Source: a virus (taxonomy: Duplodnaviria; Heunggongvirae; Uroviricota; Caudoviricetes). From it: DNA of 40,696 bases. The position numbers and the translations under genes were made by a program. The stretch lies in the IMG/VR virus record IMGVR_UViG_2541047870_000003; one strand, given 5' to 3'. The notes below the pieces were generated by a model. It was not told the DNA's origin. It did no database searches and saw only the letters and a list, made by a program, of their open reading frames with translations. How positions within the stretch are numbered: position 1 is the stretch's first letter; each line of letters starts with the position of its first letter. Shown piece after piece: positions 1,532 to 21,588 of the stretch.

Positions 1532-1741
1532 TTAATTTGAATACAATGCAATTCTCGAGGACTGAAGTTTCTCGCAATTAAAATTTATCAGTTTTACTTT
1601 CTGCTCTCTGGAAACGCCTGCTTCTTTTTTACCTGAGAGCATTTTTTCGCATTCTGATTTCGTTAGTTTAGATTTTGAATATCTTGTCCAGTTAGTAGGA
1701 GTGCCACCTTCCTTTTCAATAGTGGCGGTAATTTTATACAT
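1532..1741 (-). CDS. ydaC: Small Rac-type early protein (YdaC-like), about 69 aa from MYKITATIEKEGG
   Basis: ORF in track (1532-1813); internal start chosen to avoid long overlap with next gene; recalled similarity to Rac YdaC. Function unknown. Confidence 0.55.
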   Translation of the reverse strand: MYKITATIEKEGGTPTNWTRYSKSKLTKSECEKMLSGKKEAGVSREQKVKLINFNCEKLQSSRIALYSN

Positions 1742-9119: not shown

Positions 9120-9977
9120 ATGCTGTTTGTGCTTATTCTAAGCCACCGGGCAGCATCATACGGGGCAATTATGGCCGCATTACCATACATGCAACTGTAC
9201 ATAGCTGATTACCTGGCTGACACCATGCATTTGTCAGCAGAGGAGCATGGTGCGTATTTGTTGCTGATGTTCAATTACTGGCAAACAGGAAAGCCAATAC
9301 CTAAAAACAGGCTGGCAAAAATTGCCCGTCTGACTAACGAGCGATGGGCTGATGTTGAACCATCCTTGCAGGAGTTTTTTTGCGATAACGGCGAGGAATG
9401 GGTGCATCTTCGGATTGAGGAAGATCTGGCATCAGTCAGGGAAAAATTAACCAAAAAATCAGCCGCAGGAAAAGCATCTGTTCAGGCCAGAAGAAGCAGA
9501 AAGGAAGCAGATGTTCAAACAAAACAAGAGAGAAATTTAACAGGTGTTCAAACAGATGTTGAAGTGGTGTTTGAACATGATGTCAACACAAAGGCAACTA
9601 ATAAAGATACAGATAAAGATCTAAAAACAGATCCCCCCCTAAATCCCCCCCGGGGGAATCGAGGTGTCAAAAAGTTTGACCCTCTGGATATTGCTTTGCC
9701 GAACTGGATTTCTGTCTCGCTTTGGCGTGAGTGGGTTGAATTTCGCCAGGCATTGCGAAAACCGATTCGAACGGAGCAGGGCGCTAACGGGGCGATACGG
9801 GAGCTGGAAAAATTCCGCCAGCAGGGTTTTTCACCTGAGCAGGTGATTCGACACAGCATCGCCAATGAATACCAGGGCTTGTTCGCGCCGAAAGGTGTTC
9901 GACCTGAGACGTTACTCCGACAGGTTAACACCGTCTCGTTACCGGATAGTGCGATCCCGCCAGGCTTCAGGGGGTAA
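9120..9977 (+). CDS. ydaU: Replication initiation protein YdaU-like (O-like), 285 aa
   Basis: Position upstream of DnaC-like gene; recalled as Rac YdaU. Confidence 0.75.
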   Translation: MLFVLILSHRAASYGAIMAALPYMQLYIADYLADTMHLSAEEHGAYLLLMFNYWQTGKPIPKNRLAKIARLTNERWADVEPSLQEFFCDNGEEWVHLRIEEDLASVREKLTKKSAAGKASVQARRSRKEADVQTKQERNLTGVQTDVEVVFEHDVNTKATNKDTDKDLKTDPPLNPPRGNRGVKKFDPLDIALPNWISVSLWREWVEFRQALRKPIRTEQGANGAIRELEKFRQQGFSPEQVIRHSIANEYQGLFAPKGVRPETLLRQVNTVSLPDSAIPPGFRG

Positions 9978-15195: not shown

Positions 15196-15454
15196 AAGTT
15201 CTTAAACTCAAAATGTTATCGCGGATAGATCTTTGTAGAGTCAGTGATTGGCGCAGGTAGGTGGTAACAGCAGACAAATAGCTGCGGATACTTGAGGCTA
15301 TCTGCCTCGGGCATGAACATCAAAGGCAGATAGAGAAAAGCCCCAGTTAACATTACGCATCCGGCAAGACGCTTAACATTAATCTGAGGCCAATTTCATG
15401 CTTTGCACATGTAGGTTAGCCTCTTACGTGCCGAAAGGCAAGGAGAAGCAGGCT

Positions 15455-15610
15455 ATGAAGCAGCAAAAGGCGATGTTAGTCGCCCTGATCGTCATCTGTT
15501 TAACCGTTATAGTGACGGTACTGGTAACGAGGAAAGACCTCTGCGAGGTACGAATCCGAACCGACCAGACGGAGGTCGCTGTCTTCACAGCTTACGAACT
15601 TGGGGAGTAA
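15455..15610 (+). CDS. hok: Hok-family type I toxin, 51 aa (MKQQKAMLVALIVICLTVIVTVLVTRKDLCEVRIRTDQTEVAVFTAYELGE)
   Basis: Near-identical to Hok/RelF-family sequences as I recall them; single TM helix; in-frame upstream extension (from 15398) resembles a mok-like leader; 10-bp inverted repeat at 15298-15341 upstream. Confidence 0.8.
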   Translation: MKQQKAMLVALIVICLTVIVTVLVTRKDLCEVRIRTDQTEVAVFTAYELGE

Positions 15611-16672: not shown

Positions 16673-16962
16673 TGGTGGATTTACGTAAAGCGGCGCGGGG
16701 GCAGATGTGCGCCGTCAGAATTCCTGGCTACTGCAATCACGATCCGGAAACGTCTGTGCTGGCGCATTACCGACTGGCGGGAACGTGCGGAACAGCGACA
16801 AAACCACACGATATGCAGGCGGCGATTGCCTGTAGCTCATGCCACGATCTAATCGACGGGCGGGTAAAAACCAGCGATTACACCAAAGAAGAATTACGCC
16901 TGATGCATGCAGAAGGTGTTTTTCGCACACAAGAAATCTGGAGAAAGGAGGGATATTTGTGA
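16672..16962 (+). CDS. DUF1364 family protein (YbcO-like), 96 aa, Cys/His-rich
   Basis: CxxH/CxxC-type motifs (CSSCHDL, CNHD); ATGG start overlaps upstream stop; recalled similarity to YbcO. Confidence 0.65.
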   Translation: MVDLRKAARGQMCAVRIPGYCNHDPETSVLAHYRLAGTCGTATKPHDMQAAIACSSCHDLIDGRVKTSDYTKEELRLMHAEGVFRTQEIWRKEGYL

Positions 16963-17501
16963 TTTACCCAACGAATACAGGAAAAAGCGGAGAACACCTT
17001 CGTCTCGCCACGCTGGAAAGTGTCTGGATTCAGGGCAAACTGCGTATGTGGGGGCGCTGGTCGTATATTGGCGGTGGCAGGTCAGGAAATATGTTCAATC
17101 AGTTGTTGGCATCCAAAAAATTGACGAAAACAGCCATCAATGAAGCCCTGCGCAGAATGAAAAAAGCGGGAATAGAGAAAGCTGAGCTGGAAGCGTTTTT
17201 GCGAGAGATGATCAACGGCAAGCAAAAGAGCTGGCTGGCGCATTGTACTGATGCAGAGGCGTTATGTATTGATCGAGTCATAAGTGAGGTGCTGGCAGAG
17301 CATCCAGGATTGATTAGCGTCCTTCGGCAACGGTATGAGGGGCGGGGGATGACCAAACGCAAAATGGCTGAATTGCTAAATGATGCACACCCAGAGTGGT
17401 GTTTTAGCACATGCGAAAAGCGAATTGCTAATTGGTTGGCCGTTGCTGAGTATGCGCTATACATTCCCATGCGAGAATCATTCGCTCAAAAAACGGCTTG
17501 A
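16959..17501 (+). CDS. Putative late antiterminator Q (positional call), 180 aa from GTG
   Basis: GGAGGG 6 nt upstream of GTG 16959, overlapping upstream stop; last gene before the AT-rich late-promoter region, tRNAs and lysis cassette. Family not recognised with certainty. Confidence 0.5.
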   Translation: MIYPTNTGKSGEHLRLATLESVWIQGKLRMWGRWSYIGGGRSGNMFNQLLASKKLTKTAINEALRRMKKAGIEKAELEAFLREMINGKQKSWLAHCTDAEALCIDRVISEVLAEHPGLISVLRQRYEGRGMTKRKMAELLNDAHPEWCFSTCEKRIANWLAVAEYALYIPMRESFAQKTA

Positions 17502-17586
17502 TTTTTTACGCATAAACTGCTTCAATTTTGCTACGCTTCGCAAAGCTGTATCGCGAGGCGAATCAAGCGCAATTAAACTTTAATAG

Positions 17587-17618
17587 AACCCGCCATCAAG
17601 CGGGTTTTGTTGTTATTG
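17587..17618 (+). terminator. Intrinsic terminator-like hairpin downstream of Q (AACCCGC-catcaa-GCGGGTT followed by TTGTTGTTATTG)
   Basis: Perfect 7-bp stem plus T-rich tail, seen directly. Confidence 0.5.
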
Positions 17619-17821
17619 TGGTGTGATATAAGAAACGACATTTAATATTGCCTTCAAAATAAATTTGTTTATATATTGTCGCGTATATTTTAAGTGAAGG
17701 TGAAATGTTCACATAAAATAAAAATACATAAATAAATTTACATAGCTTGACGCAAAGTGTTGTTGCGATTGGAATATTAAATTGTATCATCGAAAACGGT
17801 TCTGAGGGGGAACTCTTCTTT

Positions 17822-17903
17822 GCTCGGTGATATCGCTCGGTGATATCGCTCGGTGATATCGCTCGGTGATATCGCTCGGTGATATCGCTCGGTGATATCG
17901 CTC
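17822..17903. repeat. Perfect direct tandem repeat: 13-bp unit GCTCGGTGATATC x6 plus 4-nt partial copy; each unit has an EcoRV site
   Basis: Counted by hand from the sequence; units identical. Confidence 0.9.
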
Positions 17904-17918
17904 CCCTGAAGAACCAAT

Positions 17919-17994
<76 letters not shown>

Positions 17995-17997
17995 TAT

Positions 17998-18072
<75 letters not shown>

Positions 18073-18280
18073 GTTAGAGTCTTTCAGTCTGCGATGATGG
18101 GAAATCCCGGAGTGACTGAAAGACGTTTAAGTTATGAATGATCGCTTTTTTTAGCAAAATTGCTGTGCAGAAATACTAACCTTCGGGCAGGCGATCATTC
18201 ATAAGCACTCTGCTTTTATTCCGATTAACTGTGGGTGGTTTGTTGGATAGAGTGCTTTCCTTACTGTATATATTGTTTCG

Positions 18281-18306
18281 CCCGCTTTTGCGGGCTTTTC
18301 TTTTCA
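18281..18306 (+). terminator. Intrinsic terminator (GCCCGC-tttt-GCGGGC followed by TTTTCTTTTC); candidate tR'-like terminator between tRNAs and holin
   Basis: Perfect 6-bp GC stem plus U-tract, seen directly. Confidence 0.6.
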
Positions 18307-18364
18307 AATCCCTTTCATTTCTCAGTGTAAAACTACGCCATCCGTTATTTGCGGAGGTGAGGCT

Positions 18365-18580
18365 ATGAAATCCATGGACAAAATTTCAACGGGCATTGCC
18401 TATGGCACCTCCGCAGGCAGTGCTGGCTACTGGTTTTTACAGTGGCTTGATCAGGTCAGTCCGTCACAGTGGGCTGCGATTGGTGTGCTGGGGAGTCTGG
18501 TTCTGGGCTTCCTGACTTATCTGACAAATCTGTACTTCAAAATCAGAGAAGACAAGCGTAAGGCTGCACGGGGAGAGTAA
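18365..18580 (+). CDS. S: Phage-21-type pinholin S21 with dual-start motif (Met1-Lys-Ser-Met4)
   Basis: [27 protein letters not shown]... matches S21 as recalled; two TM segments; Lys between the two Met codons. Confidence 0.85.
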
Positions 18581-19993: not shown

Positions 19994-20130
19994 AATCTTA
20001 ACTACAATATGATTCATTTTGATGATTGTTTCATAAGGAACAGTGAAGTAAGATCTAAGAGGAGTTAAATTTTATACAGTATAATCATAATATTGCAGCA
20101 AGGTGGTTATAATTGAAAGAATATTTAGAT

Positions 20131-21588
20131 ATGAATACATCTCATGTAAGAGTTGTTACTCATATGTGTGGGTTCCTGGTTTGGCTCTATAGTCTTTCAA
20201 TGTTGCCACCAATGGTTGTAGCATTGTTTTATAAAGAAAAAAGCCTGTTCGTTTTCTTTATAACTTTCGTTATATTTTTTTGTATTGGTGGCGGAGCGTG
20301 GTATACAACTAAGAAATCTGGCATTCAATTACGTACCCGTGATGGGTTTATTATAATTGTAATGTTTTGGATTTTGTTTTCTGTTATTAGTGCATTCCCT
20401 TTATGGATTGACTCAGAACTTAATTTAACGTTCATTGATGCTCTGTTTGAAGGGGTTTCTGGAATAACAACAACAGGAGCAACTGTAATTGATGATGTTA
20501 GTTCATTACCTCGGGCATATTTGTACTATCGGTCACAGTTAAATTTTATAGGTGGTTTAGGAGTTATTGTTCTGGCGGTTGCTGTATTGCCATTATTGGG
20601 TATTGGTGGTGCAAAGCTTTATCAGTCAGAAATGCCGGGGCCATTTAAGGATGACAAACTCACTCCCCGCCTGGCCGATACGTCACGGACACTGTGGATA
20701 ACTTATTCTTTATTAGGTATTGCTTGTATTGTCTGTTATAGACTTGCAGGAATGCCTTTGTTTGATGCTATTTGTCACGGGATTTCCACAGTTTCGCTTG
20801 GTGGTTTCTCAACTCATAGCGAGAGTATCGGATATTTTAATAACTATTTGGTTGAGCTGGTGGCTGGTTCTTTTTCCCTGCTATCGGCTTTCAACTTCAC
20901 TCTTTGGTATATTGTTATTAGCAGGAAAACGATAAAACCTTTAATCAGAGATATTGAACTTCGTTTCTTTCTGTTAATAGCCTTAGGGGTGATCATTGTT
21001 ACCTCTTTCCAGGTCTGGCATATAGGTATGTATGACTTGCATGGAAGTTTTATTCATTCGTTTTTTCTTGCCAGCTCCATGCTCACTGATAATGGTTTAG
21101 CTACGCAGGATTATGCAAGTTGGCCCACGCACACGATAGTGTTTTTGCTGTTGTCAAGTTTCTTTGGGGGATGTATAGGTTCAACTTGTGGTGGAATTAA
21201 GTCACTTCGATTTCTTATACTTTTCAAACAAAGCAAACACGAGATAAATCAGCTTTCTCATCCCAGAGCGTTGTTGAGTGTAAATGTAGGAGGGAAGATA
21301 GTTACAGATCGTGTAATGAGGTCTGTATGGAGTTTCTTTTTTCTTTATACTCTCTTCACGGTGTTTTTTATACTGGTGTTAAATGGTATGGGATATGATT
21401 TTCTTACATCATTTGCAACAGTGGCTGCATGTATTAATAATATGGGATTAGGTTTTGGGGCTACTGCATCGTCATTCGGAGTGCTTAATGACATTGCAAA
21501 ATGTTTAATGTGCATAGCTATGATTCTTGGTCGCCTTGAAATTTATCCTGTTATTATATTGTTTTCAGGTTTTTTTTGGCGCTCCTAA
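20131..21588 (+). CDS. trkG: TrkG/TrkH-family K+ uptake membrane protein, 485 aa from MNTSHVRVV
   Basis: Polytopic membrane protein; recalled as Rac TrkG; sits in a region that looks AT-rich by eye. Track ORF starts at TTG 20113. Confidence 0.85.
   Translation: MNTSHVRVVTHMCGFLVWLYSLSMLPPMVVALFYKEKSLFVFFITFVIFFCIGGGAWYTTKKSGIQLRTRDGFIIIVMFWILFSVISAFPLWIDSELNLTFIDALFEGVSGITTTGATVIDDVSSLPRAYLYYRSQLNFIGGLGVIVLAVAVLPLLGIGGAKLYQSEMPGPFKDDKLTPRLADTSRTLWITYSLLGIACIVCYRLAGMPLFDAICHGISTVSLGGFSTHSESIGYFNNYLVELVAGSFSLLSAFNFTLWYIVISRKTIKPLIRDIELRFFLLIALGVIIVTSFQVWHIGMYDLHGSFIHSFFLASSMLTDNGLATQDYASWPTHTIVFLLLSSFFGGCIGSTCGGIKSLRFLILFKQSKHEINQLSHPRALLSVNVGGKIVTDRVMRSVWSFFFLYTLFTVFFILVLNGMGYDFLTSFATVAACINNMGLGFGATASSFGVLNDIAKCLMCIAMILGRLEIYPVIILFSGFFWRS

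What the first reader, a model, noticed from the sequence alone, without database searches (positions are those of the whole stretch)
18073..18205. Compound RNA-structure element immediately after tRNA-Gly
Seen directly: a perfect 11-bp hairpin (GTCTTTCAGTC ... GACTGAAAGAC) with a 24-nt loop that itself contains GGGAAATCCC, followed by a perfect 12-bp inverted repeat (ATGAATGATCGC ... GCGATCATTCAT) spanning about 46 nt. These are long for chance and lie in non-coding DNA inside the late leader. They could be a degenerate third tRNA, a small RNA, or a processing/antitermination element.
Basis: seen in the sequence. Interest (0 to 1): 0.45.

Follow-up and report, generated by a model that had tools for sequence, protein, structure and literature searches.

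The report
Structured RNA tail after prophage tRNAs
The hairpins are real and evolutionarily maintained: they form the folded, non-coding tail of a small tRNA operon carried by an E. coli prophage, and the first hairpin belongs to a widespread, so far unannotated phage RNA motif with a kink-turn-like core whose function is still unknown.

Summary
Directly after tRNA-Gly lie three hairpins: H1 18079-18124, H2 18132-18204 and H3 18205-18255. An intrinsic terminator follows at 18280-18305. The fold is far more stable than shuffled sequence (z = -6.8). In 28 distinct copies, 98.6% of pair cells are kept and 11 pairs show compensatory double changes. Many G.U pairs point to a + strand RNA.

It is not a tRNA, not any Rfam 15 family, and not a Pas sRNA or STnc100.

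It is the 3' trailer of a tRNA operon that appears to have its own conserved promoter and terminator. That operon sits between the Q antiterminator's terminator and the lysis genes.

H1 is one member of a broader family that caps tRNA arrays in many lambdoid phages. In 35 distinct copies, 10 of 17 pairs covary. Its internal loop fits the kink-turn consensus: a 3-nt bulge and an invariant tandem G.A/A.G.

Most likely role, by inference only: a cis-acting boundary module that helps tRNA 3'-end processing and RNA stability, and that leaves a stable ~230-nt by-product RNA. A trans-acting or protein-binding role is not excluded.

I rate it a new variant of a known kind, of moderate interest.

The parts
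17581..17612 (+). Intrinsic terminator about 80 nt after the Q-family gene; likely tR' of the late promoter. Context only, not part of the element.
   Evidence: Terminator scan. The same layout (Q, short leader, terminator, then the tRNA array) is seen in L135, L002 and L003.
17763..17790 (+). Sigma-70-like promoter site (TTGCGA-16 nt-TATCAT) proposed to drive the tRNA operon.
   Evidence: Hexamers of the form TTGCxx-N17-TAT(T/C)AT lie 9-10 nt (not separately counted) before the first tRNA in the 18 arrays whose upstream sequence was held, although the spacers and upstream DNA are unrelated. This is a consensus match and is not proven.
17919..17994 (+). tRNA-Thr (anticodon UGU).
   Evidence: ARAGORN; Rfam tRNA 73.8 bits.
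17998..18072 (+). tRNA-Gly (anticodon UCC); its 3' end is always linked to the element.
   Evidence: All 125 copies scanned keep at least ...GCTCCAG before H1, even where the rest of the tRNA has been replaced.
18073..18078 (+). A/U-rich single-stranded linker (GUUAGA) between the CCA end and H1; candidate endonuclease (RNase E type) cut site.
   Evidence: In 35 distinct family members the linker is 4-7 nt and 83% A/U. Cleavage is inferred, not shown.
18079..18124 (+). H1: an 11-bp stem, a kink-turn-like internal loop and a 3-bp cap hairpin.
   Evidence: The covariance model R1 scores 69.6 bits on the + strand and 21.6 bits on the - strand.
18091..18113 (+). Kink-turn-like core. C-stem G18091.U18113 and C18092-G18112; bulge G18093 A18094 U18095; G18096.A18111; A18097.G18110; U18098.G18109 (the 3b.3n position); GGG/CCC 18099-18101 with 18106-18108; loop AAAU.
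   Evidence: The tandem GA/GA is invariant in 35 of 35 distinct copies. L3, 3b.3n and the cap loop vary. The consensus and the folding rule are taken from PMC2790904 and PMC4382518.
18132..18204 (+). H2: a 15-pair outer stem enclosing two inner helices (H2a 18149-18156 with 18166-18173; H2b 18180-18181 with 18186-18187), forming a three-way junction.
   Evidence: Alifold. Five outer-stem pairs and one H2a pair show double compensatory changes. L110 carries a shortened H2 that is still a 13-bp stem with three G.U pairs.
18205..18255 (+). H3: outer helix 18205-18212 with 18248-18255; inner G.U-rich helix 18220-18230 with 18237-18247.
   Evidence: Three outer pairs show double changes, in at least four distinct sequence states.
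18233..18248 (+). Near-invariant G/U-rich strand GGGUGGUUUGUUGGAU (3' side of H3).
   Evidence: The core UGGUUUGUUGG changes in only one of the 61 distinct copies that were chosen through H1 alone. Its pairing partner varies freely through wobble pairs. Located.
18280..18305 (+). Intrinsic terminator (GCCCGC-UUUU-GCGGGC plus U run) that closes the tRNA operon.
   Evidence: In nearly all of the 38 distinct downstream sequences printed, a terminator-like hairpin plus T run lies about 12-25 nt after H3, in two main unrelated sequence types.

Best explanation
The element is the structured 3' trailer of a small tRNA operon carried as an insert (a 'moron') in the Q-to-lysis gap of a lambdoid E. coli prophage. 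The layout is: promoter, a repeat-filled tRNA-like frame, tRNA-Thr, tRNA-Gly, a 6-nt A/U linker, H1, H2, H3, terminator.

Shown: three + strand RNA hairpins are maintained by selection. H1 belongs to a wider, unannotated family of hairpins with a kink-turn-like core that cap the last tRNA of phage tRNA arrays. The unit ends in a terminator.

Inferred mechanism: the trailer is a cis-acting boundary module. In lysogens the operon's own promoter makes a short precursor that stops at the terminator. During lytic growth, Q-modified polymerase reads through, and the tRNAs are then embedded in the long late mRNA. In both cases an endonuclease (RNase E type) would cut in the A/U linker to free the tRNA-Gly 3' end. 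The stable hairpins would then block exonucleases and give the downstream RNA a base-paired 5' end. The long stems could also be RNase III sites.

The by-product would be a stable, highly folded RNA of about 230 nt (18073-18305). The self-folding kink-turn and the invariant loops suggest that something specific recognises this RNA, but its partner is unknown.
For: - Structure is real. Fold z = -6.8. On 28 distinct copies, 98.6% of pair cells are standard pairs against 39-47% when the partners are slid, and 11 pairs show double changes.
- It is a + strand RNA. G.U pairs are abundant, and the covariance model scores 69.6 bits on + against 21.6 bits on -.
- It is linked to the end of the tRNA array. 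All 125 copies follow the tRNA-Gly 3' end. Arrays are usually tRNA-Met, a variable tRNA, tRNA-Thr, tRNA-Gly, then H1.
- It is its own transcription unit. Promoter hexamers keep a fixed distance from the first tRNA across unrelated spacers (window site). A terminator follows H3 in two main unrelated sequence types. A separate terminator lies just after Q.
- H1 is a wide family. In 35 distinct copies, 10 of 17 pairs show double changes, with 0-1 of 500 shuffles reaching the observed values. The carriers are phages downstream of lambda-Q-like ORFs (N-terminal resemblance as I read it; no family search).
- The linker is 4-7 nt and 83% A/U.
- The core fits a kink-turn. There is a 3-nt bulge and the tandem G.A/A.G is invariant in 35 of 35. 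The 3b.3n position is U.G in 23 copies, A.G in 8 and C.U in 2. So 33 of 35 fit the published rule for folding in metal ions alone: 3n = G or 3b = C, but not both (PMC4382518).
- The architecture 'H1, then an abutting long H2, then a terminator' recurs although the H2 sequences are unrelated.
Against: - No transcript, cleavage site or stability measurement exists. Every mechanistic step after 'conserved + strand RNA structure at the end of a tRNA operon' is inference.
- A plain barrier or terminator function would not need about 200 nt, nor invariant unpaired nucleotides (the kink-turn core, the H2a loop AAAUUGCUG, the G/U-rich H3 strand). Those point to specific recognition and possibly a trans role.
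- Ordinary E. coli tRNA operons do without such trailers.
- The H1-H3 alignment falls mostly into two clades, so independent events there are few.
- Part of the H1 5'-strand conservation was forced by my search patterns. The 3'-strand GA was not.
- A few H1-like hairpins lie 330-560 nt from the nearest tRNA-Gly (L216, L246).
- E. coli has no known L7Ae-type kink-turn binding protein (my own knowledge).
Confidence: 0.45

Rival explanations
1. It is a trans-acting regulatory RNA. After excision from the tRNA precursor, the ~230-nt trailer would act as a base-pairing sRNA or a sponge. It would resemble a 3' external-transcribed-spacer sRNA, or the short pR' transcript StxS. It would work through a conserved exposed segment, for example the G/U-rich GGGUGGUUUGUUGG or the H2a loop, perhaps with Hfq or ProQ bound at the terminator.
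For: The UGGUUUGUUGG strand is almost invariant while its partner strand drifts through wobble pairs. The H2a loop AAAUUGCUG is conserved while its stem covaries. A U-rich linker plus intrinsic terminator forms the 3' end. The same genomic niche (Q to lysis genes) is known to hold Hfq-bound prophage sRNAs: StxS (PMC7547250), and PasA/PasC/PasD and STnc100 (PMC8550237; bioRxiv 10.64898/2026.05.13.724894).
Against: No target was found. Complements of the conserved segments have no convincing match in the window, and no genome-wide search was possible. The candidate seed is base-paired inside H3. H2 and H3 are absent or replaced in many lineages that keep H1. The RNA is much more structured than typical Hfq sRNAs. 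It is not one of the Pas sRNAs.
Confidence: 0.25
2. It is a protein-binding decoy or scaffold. The self-folding kink-turn hairpin (H1) would be a specific docking site for a host or phage protein, for example a ribosomal or RNA-processing protein, and the RNA would titrate or recruit that protein.
For: The kink-turn core is invariant across divergent phages, while the stems, the cap loop and the L3 position vary. Kink-turns commonly serve as protein sites or architectural elements (PMC4316175).
Against: No partner co-varies with the element: the neighbouring lysis and Q genes are of several unrelated types. No L7Ae-family protein is known in E. coli (my own knowledge). The kink-turn assignment rests on sequence pattern only.
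Confidence: 0.12
3. It is a DNA-level feature or an evolutionary scar: a recombination hot spot, an attachment or homing site at the tRNA-Gly 3' end, or decayed tRNA genes with no present function.
For: Mosaic junctions fall inside the tRNA-Gly 3' part at different depths. An HNH endonuclease ORF sits between tRNA fragments in L003. In L008 a deletion joins the tRNA-Gly 5' half to the H1 loop at the shared GATGATG. The H1 loop resembles the variable and T-arm region of tRNA-Gly.
Against: Compensatory changes keep the pairing. Roughly a tenth of pair cells are G.U (my tally), and these would be A.C mismatches on the other strand or in a DNA cruciform. There is strong strand asymmetry in the covariance-model score. 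The tRNA models do not match. The breakpoints vary, which is unlike a site-specific core.
Confidence: 0.07
4. It is an antitermination or Q-related cis element, either like the HK022 put RNAs or a pause or loading signal.
For: It lies between Q and the late genes. HK639, a phage reported to use RNA-mediated antitermination in its early operons (my own knowledge), carries a copy.
Against: It lies downstream of tRNAs and is followed by its own terminator. It occurs with at least three unrelated Q types. It is absent from many lambdoid phages, such as phi80. It matches no Rfam family.
Confidence: 0.03

Closest known systems
3' external transcribed spacer RNAs of tRNA operons (e.g. 3'ETS-leuZ of the E. 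coli glyW-cysT-leuZ transcript; my own knowledge, Lalaouna et al. 2015)
   Same: A non-coding segment transcribed after the last tRNA of an operon. It ends at the operon's intrinsic terminator and would be released by tRNA 3' processing.
   Different: 3'ETS-leuZ is short (about 50 nt) and is essentially the terminator plus a pairing segment. It is chromosomal, and Hfq binding and sponge activity have been shown for it. Here the trailer is about 230 nt with three conserved hairpins and a kink-turn-like motif, it is phage-borne, and no partner is known.
StxS and lambda 6S RNA: short transcripts from the late promoter pR' that end at tR' (PMC7547250)
   Same: Non-coding RNA made in lysogens from the Q-to-lysis gap of lambdoid prophages and ended by an intrinsic terminator that Q overrides.
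   Different: Those RNAs start at pR' and end at the first terminator. In this window that terminator (17581-17612) lies upstream. The element belongs to a second unit with its own promoter-like site, and its 5' end would be made by processing, not by initiation. There is no sequence or structure similarity.
STnc100 / PasD and PasA / PasC prophage sRNAs (Rfam RF02076; PMC8550237; bioRxiv 10.64898/2026.05.13.724894)
   Same: Same genomic niche (next to Q, tRNAs, holin and lysozyme in E. coli and Shigella prophages) and the same modular, mosaic spread. STnc100 occurs in the same leaders as divergent copies of this element (L001-L003, L199, L252).
   Different: Different sequences and folds. STnc100 is absent from the window, and the northern-probe sequences for PasA-D are absent from the window at up to 5 mismatches.
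Kink-turn motifs (Kt-7 type of rRNA and riboswitches; box C/D) (PMC2790904, PMC4382518, PMC4316175)
   Same: Watson-Crick C-stem, 3-nt bulge, tandem G.A/A.G and a non-Watson-Crick 3b.3n pair. The sequence AUGAUGG...CGGA is close to the box C (RUGAUGA) and box D (CUGA) consensus, and one variant (L192) has a perfect CUGA.
   Different: A known kink-turn is defined by its three-dimensional kink, which was not tested here. The setting, a hairpin capping a phage tRNA array in a host without an L7Ae protein, has not been described as far as I could find.
Stable small RNAs of the phage T4 tRNA gene cluster (species 1 and 2, rnaC/rnaD; my own knowledge)
   Same: Phage-encoded, structured, stable non-tRNA RNAs co-transcribed and co-processed with a tRNA cluster. 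Their function is still unknown.
   Different: A virulent T-even phage and an unrelated sequence. No homology was tested or claimed.

Membership tests
tRNA (Rfam RF00005 / ARAGORN) | Cloverleaf with acceptor, D, anticodon and T arms that is detectable by tRNA models. | tested here: not met
   ARAGORN finds only 17919-17994 and 17998-18072. The Rfam tRNA model gives no hit in 18073-18310 at E<=10.
Any curated Rfam 15 family | Score at or above the family's gathering threshold. | tested here: not met
   No hit at the gathering threshold. At E<=10 there are only chance-level hits (ceN44 snoRNA at 15.2 bits against a threshold of 70; RyhB, anti-hemB and CRISPR-DR28 on the terminator). Eleven divergent loci show only tRNA and STnc100.
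Kink-turn motif | Three-nucleotide bulge flanked 5' by a Watson-Crick (C) helix. | tested here: met
   Bulge GA[U/A/G] in 35 of 35 copies. The C-stem C-G is invariant and the G.U pair is 34 of 35, replaced by U-A in L213. The 5'-strand part was partly forced by my filter.
Kink-turn motif | Tandem trans sugar-Hoogsteen G.A and A.G pairs that open the NC helix. | tested here: inconclusive
   The nucleotides required (GA on both strands, in register) are invariant in 35 of 35 copies, and the 3'-strand GA was not imposed by any search pattern. The pairing geometry itself cannot be seen from sequence.
Kink-turn motif | A 3b.3n pair that allows folding in metal ions (3n = G or 3b = C, not both; PMC4382518). 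| tested here: met
   U.G in 23 copies, A.G in 8 and C.U in 2, so 33 of 35 fit the rule; U.U in 1 and G.U in 1.
Kink-turn motif | A sharp kink of the helix axis of about 50-60 degrees in three dimensions. | not testable with these tools
   Needs FRET, gel mobility, probing or a solved structure.
3'ETS-type tRNA-trailer sRNA | Lies between the last tRNA of an operon and the operon's terminator, on the same strand. | tested here: met
3'ETS-type tRNA-trailer sRNA | Released by RNase E, accumulates, binds Hfq, and pairs with other RNAs. | not testable with these tools
   No expression or interaction data. Only an A/U-rich linker and a U-rich 3' end are visible.
pR'-tR' short late-leader RNA (lambda 6S, StxS) | Starts at the Q-dependent late promoter and ends at the first terminator downstream. 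| tested here: not met
   The first terminator after the Q gene is at 17581-17612, about 470 nt upstream of the element. The same order is seen in L135, L002 and L003.
Pas sRNAs (PasA, B, C, D) and STnc100 | Sequence or covariance-model match. | tested here: not met
   The four published northern-probe sequences are absent from the window at up to 5 mismatches (probes from PMC8550237 table S6). There is no RF02076 hit in the window.
put-type antiterminator RNA (HK022 / HK639) | A two-hairpin RNA just downstream of a promoter that makes polymerase terminator-resistant without a protein factor. | not tested
   No put model or sequence was available. The position (after two tRNAs, before its own terminator, in phages that all encode Q) argues against it.

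The most novel reading that the evidence does not exclude
The tRNA-array trailer would be a new class of phage regulatory RNA. The prophage's own tRNA-operon promoter would make it constitutively in lysogens. Its self-folding kink-turn hairpin (H1) would dock a specific host or phage protein, and/or its invariant G/U-rich segment would pair with host RNAs. The prophage would then reprogram host translation or RNA metabolism through an RNA that has so far been taken for spacer.
Probability: 0.15. Interest if true: 0.75.

Novelty: new variant of a known kind. Interest (0 to 1): 0.5.

Why it matters
About one in ten complete E. coli genomes (536 of 5426) carries this element. A related kink-turn-like hairpin caps tRNA arrays in many lambdoid phages. 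Yet it is in no RNA family database, and I found it in no paper.

It marks out a self-contained tRNA 'moron' (promoter, tRNAs, structured trailer, terminator) in the Q-to-lysis gap. That niche is already known to breed prophage sRNAs that affect virulence.

If the trailer is only a processing and stability device, it shows how phages embed tRNAs in a long mRNA without destabilising it. If it is a stable RNA with a partner, it adds a new regulatory RNA, and a bacterial kink-turn in an organism with no known L7Ae-type binder, that can be tested directly.

Tried and rejected
- Degenerate tRNA: rejected.
- Known Rfam family: none at the gathering threshold or at E<=10, in the window or in 14 related loci.
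- Pas sRNAs of EPEC: the niche matched, so I read both papers and table S6. The probe sequences are absent, and PasA is on the opposite strand relative to its neighbours.
- phi80 'M3 RNA', recalled as a lambdoid hairpin RNA cut by RNase P: the phi80 record annotates it as the oop homologue near cII, and the phi80 late leader has no tRNA or kink-turn hairpin. Irrelevant.
- Literature search for the sequence itself and for HK639 late-leader RNAs: nothing.
- Targets in cis: complements of the G/U-rich strand and of the H2a loop have no convincing match elsewhere in the window.
- Presence outside Escherichia and Shigella: a looser H1-loop pattern on one genome per species gave 4 real hits (E. coli and S. 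flexneri, two each) and 62 hits I judged to be chance, in unrelated, mostly GC-rich taxa. The wider H1 family only appeared when I anchored on the tRNA-Gly 3' end in viral contigs.
- GcvB-like or C/D snoRNA-like resemblances seen by eye: not supported by Rfam scores.
- Small ORFs overlapping the element (18040-18141 on +, 18176-18307 on -): not pursued, because length-changing indels and the covariation pattern argue against coding.

Full report
**Setting**

The window is an E. coli lambdoid prophage. It carries RalA and sok RNAs. A Q-family gene lies at 16959-17501 (Pfam DUF1133 at 357 bits, plus Phage_antitermQ at 27.4 bits). A phage-21-type holin starts at 18365, followed by DUF1327, a lysozyme and Rz, and then trkG. 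Between Q and the holin lie, in order:
- an intrinsic terminator at 17581-17612;
- a seven-fold 13-bp tandem repeat;
- tRNA-Thr(UGU) at 17919-17994 and tRNA-Gly(UCC) at 17998-18072;
- the finding.

**Observation**

Both inverted repeats exist.
- H1 arms are 18079-18089 and 18114-18124: 11 bp, perfect, with a 24-nt loop that holds GGGAAATCCC.
- H2 arms are 18132-18145 and 18191-18204: 14 bp, perfect, with 45 nt between them.
- A third hairpin follows (H3, arms 18203-18211 and 18249-18257).
- An intrinsic terminator comes next (stem 18280-18295 plus T run).

The region is far from chance. The window holds 6 perfect inverted repeats of >=11 bp with loops <=60 nt, against 0.5 expected, and two of them are adjacent here. 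RNA folding gives -82.1 kcal/mol against -56.8 +/- 3.7 for shuffles, z = -6.8.

**Conservation and covariation of the whole trailer**

The 238-nt stretch occurs in 536 of 5426 complete E. coli genomes, always on chromosomes, and in four phage records at 97-98% identity. More distant copies exist, for example in phage HK639 at 76%.

A pattern scan of viral contigs gave more than 120 loci. Twenty-eight distinct full-length copies align cleanly (A1). RNAalifold recovers H1, a branched H2 and H3, with 60 pairs in total. Counting the pairs gives:
- 98.6% of cells are standard pairs, against 39-47% when the 3' partners are slid by 1-3 columns;
- 11 pairs show changes on both sides (H1 2, H2 outer stem 5, H2a 1, H3 outer stem 3);
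- 0 of 500 shuffles reach the observed covariation score.

Caveat: these copies fall mainly into two clades, so independent events are few. H3 nevertheless shows at least four different paired states.

G.U pairs are frequent and fixed at several positions. They would be A.C mismatches on the other strand, so the functional molecule is the + strand RNA.

Modular variants exist:
- L033 has H1 with a different H2.
- L003, L006 and L051 have H1 and H2 followed by unrelated DNA.
- L110 has a shortened H2 that is still a 13-bp stem with three G.U pairs.

**What transcription unit it belongs to**

In every copy the element follows the 3' end of tRNA-Gly, even where most of the tRNA has been replaced. 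The usual array is tRNA-Met, a tRNA with a variable anticodon, tRNA-Thr, tRNA-Gly, then H1.

In the 18 arrays whose upstream sequence was held, hexamers of the form TTGCxx-N17-TAT(T/C)AT lie 9-10 nt (not separately counted) before the first tRNA. The spacers and upstream DNA around them belong to unrelated sequence families. The window has TTGCGA-16-TATCAT at 17763-17790.

In nearly all of the 38 distinct downstream sequences printed, a terminator-like hairpin plus T run lies about 12-25 nt after H3. These terminators come in two main unrelated sequence types.

In L135, L002 and L003 the Q gene is followed by a short leader and a terminator before the tRNA array begins. The window has the same order.

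So the element is not part of the short pR'-tR' leader. It is the 3' trailer of a separate tRNA operon with its own promoter-like site and terminator, inserted in the late operon. The promoter is a conserved consensus match and is not proven.

**H1 is a member of a much wider family**

I anchored a scan on the tRNA-Gly 3' end alone and excluded the trailers that start with G. This returned many divergent phage contigs in which the tRNA, or the last tRNA of the array, is followed after 4-7 nt by a hairpin of the same design. The linker is 83% A/U. The stems of these hairpins differ. These phages carry lambda-Q-like ORFs upstream (N-terminal resemblance as I read it; no family search).

On 35 distinct copies (A2/A3):
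- 95% of cells pair, against 38-46% when slid;
- 10 of 17 pairs show double changes;
- 0-1 of 500 shuffles reach the observed values.

A covariance model built from them scores the window copy at 69.6 bits on the + strand and 21.6 bits on the - strand. It also finds further copies behind other tRNAs, and a few at a distance from any tRNA.

Folding of 17 divergent trailers shows a common architecture: H1, then an abutting long second hairpin, then one or more further modules, then a terminator. The second hairpins have largely unrelated sequences.

**The internal loop of H1 fits the kink-turn consensus**

Reading the window copy:
- C-stem: G18091.U18113 and C18092-G18112.
- Three-nucleotide bulge: G18093 A18094 U18095.
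- Tandem pairs: G18096.A18111 and A18097.G18110.
- 3b.3n pair: U18098.G18109.
- Then three G-C pairs and a 3-4-nt cap loop.

Across 35 distinct copies the GA/GA quartet is invariant. The third bulge nucleotide varies (U, A or G). The cap loop varies freely. The 3b.3n pair is U.G in 23 copies, A.G in 8, C.U in 2, U.U in 1 and G.U in 1.

The published consensus is a three-nucleotide bulge followed by G.A and A.G pairs (PMC2790904). [quoted passage not shown] Thirty-three of the 35 copies obey that rule.

My filters imposed part of the 5'-strand motif. They did not impose the 3'-strand GA or the 3b.3n pattern. In a separate scan that left the whole core free, 124 of 127 copies had an intact core. 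The three exceptions changed a cap-stem pair to G.U (2 copies) or changed 3n to U (1 copy). The kink itself is untested.

**What it is not**

- Not a tRNA.
- Not any Rfam 15 family.
- Not STnc100, which occurs in the leaders of L001-L003, L199 and L252 but not in the window.
- Not PasA-D of EPEC.
- Unrelated to phi80 M3 RNA, which is the oop homologue.
- I found no paper that holds its sequence.

**Mechanism**

Shown: a + strand RNA structure under purifying selection, placed at the 3' boundary of a phage tRNA operon, followed by a terminator. Its first hairpin carries a conserved kink-turn-like core.

Inferred, and my preferred reading (0.45): a cis-acting boundary module.
- In lysogens the operon's own promoter gives a short precursor that ends at 18305.
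- In lytic growth Q-modified polymerase reads through, and the tRNAs sit inside the long late mRNA.
- In both cases an RNase E-type cut in the A/U linker would free the tRNA-Gly 3' end.
- The stable hairpins would then stop exonucleases and give the downstream RNA a paired 5' end. The 14-20-bp stems could also be RNase III sites.
- The excised ~230-nt RNA would be a stable by-product.

Against a purely structural role stand the invariant unpaired nucleotides: the kink-turn core, the H2a loop AAAUUGCUG, and the near-invariant G/U-rich strand 18233-18248, whose partner strand drifts through wobble pairs. These leave real room for a trans-acting sRNA or sponge (0.25) or a protein-docking RNA (0.12). 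DNA-level or scar explanations (0.07) and antitermination (0.03) fit poorly.

**Verdict**

I rate it a new variant of a known kind: a phage tRNA-operon trailer RNA with a kink-turn-like hairpin that is widespread but unannotated. Interest is moderate (0.5), because the structure is solid but the function is open.

Noticed in passing
window 17798-17916: A seven-fold tandem repeat of 13 bp (GCTCGGTGATATC, about 17823-17905) is framed by an inverted repeat, GGTTCTGAGGGG ... CCCCTGAAGAACC(A). The frame looks like the two halves of a tRNA acceptor/T stem. It sits exactly where related arrays carry tRNA-Met and a second tRNA, directly after the promoter-like site. It folds into a long hairpin and gave a chance-level Rfam miRNA hit.
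   Followed up: partly
L009, L021, L039, L054, L061, L063, L064, L080, L081, L103, L110: The second tRNA of the prophage arrays (tRNA-Met, X, tRNA-Thr, tRNA-Gly) has a highly variable anticodon. ARAGORN reports Arg(tct), Lys(ttt), Phe(aaa), Leu(taa), Leu(cag), 'Stop'(tta), which would read the ochre codon, and several with irregular anticodon loops.
   Followed up: no
L001 1754-1959, L002 1041-1243, L003 1710-1902, L199 2215-2330, L252 6321-6722: The sRNA family STnc100 (RF02076), including the recurring hairpin CACCGGGAGGCACCCGGCAC, occurs in the same Q-to-lysis leaders, before or after the tRNA array. Together with the trailer and several terminators, the leader looks like a string of exchangeable RNA modules.
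   Followed up: partly
L003 1029-1454: An HNH endonuclease ORF sits between a tRNA 5'-half-like sequence and a tRNA 3' fragment that is joined to H1. This suggests homing-endonuclease activity inside these tRNA arrays.
   Followed up: no
L008 about 1900-1960: A natural deletion fuses the 5' half of tRNA-Gly directly to the H1 loop at the shared heptamer GATGATG, removing the tRNA 3' half and the H1 5' arm. The H1 loop GATGATGGG..CCCGG resembles the tRNA-Gly variable and T-arm segment GATGATGCGGG..CCCGC.
   Followed up: partly
window 18280-18305 and the equivalent positions in L011, L013, L027, L072, L122 and others: In many otherwise near-identical copies the 3' arm of the trailer terminator is eroded (GCGGGC to GCGGTT, GCGTTT or GTCGGT), lengthening the T run and weakening the stem from -13.7 to between -3 and -7 kcal/mol. 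This may tune read-through into the holin gene.
   Followed up: no
window near 9544, 12647, 14307 and 20245: Four more perfect inverted repeats of >=11 bp with loops <=60 nt occur elsewhere in the window. They were not examined.
   Followed up: no
window 1557-1735, 15286-15460, 20113-21588: RalA (antitoxin sRNA of the RalR system) and a sok/hok-type locus are present, and trkG follows the lysis cassette. This points to a Rac-like prophage that, unlike K-12 Rac, still carries a Q gene, a tRNA operon and a complete lysis cassette.
   Followed up: no
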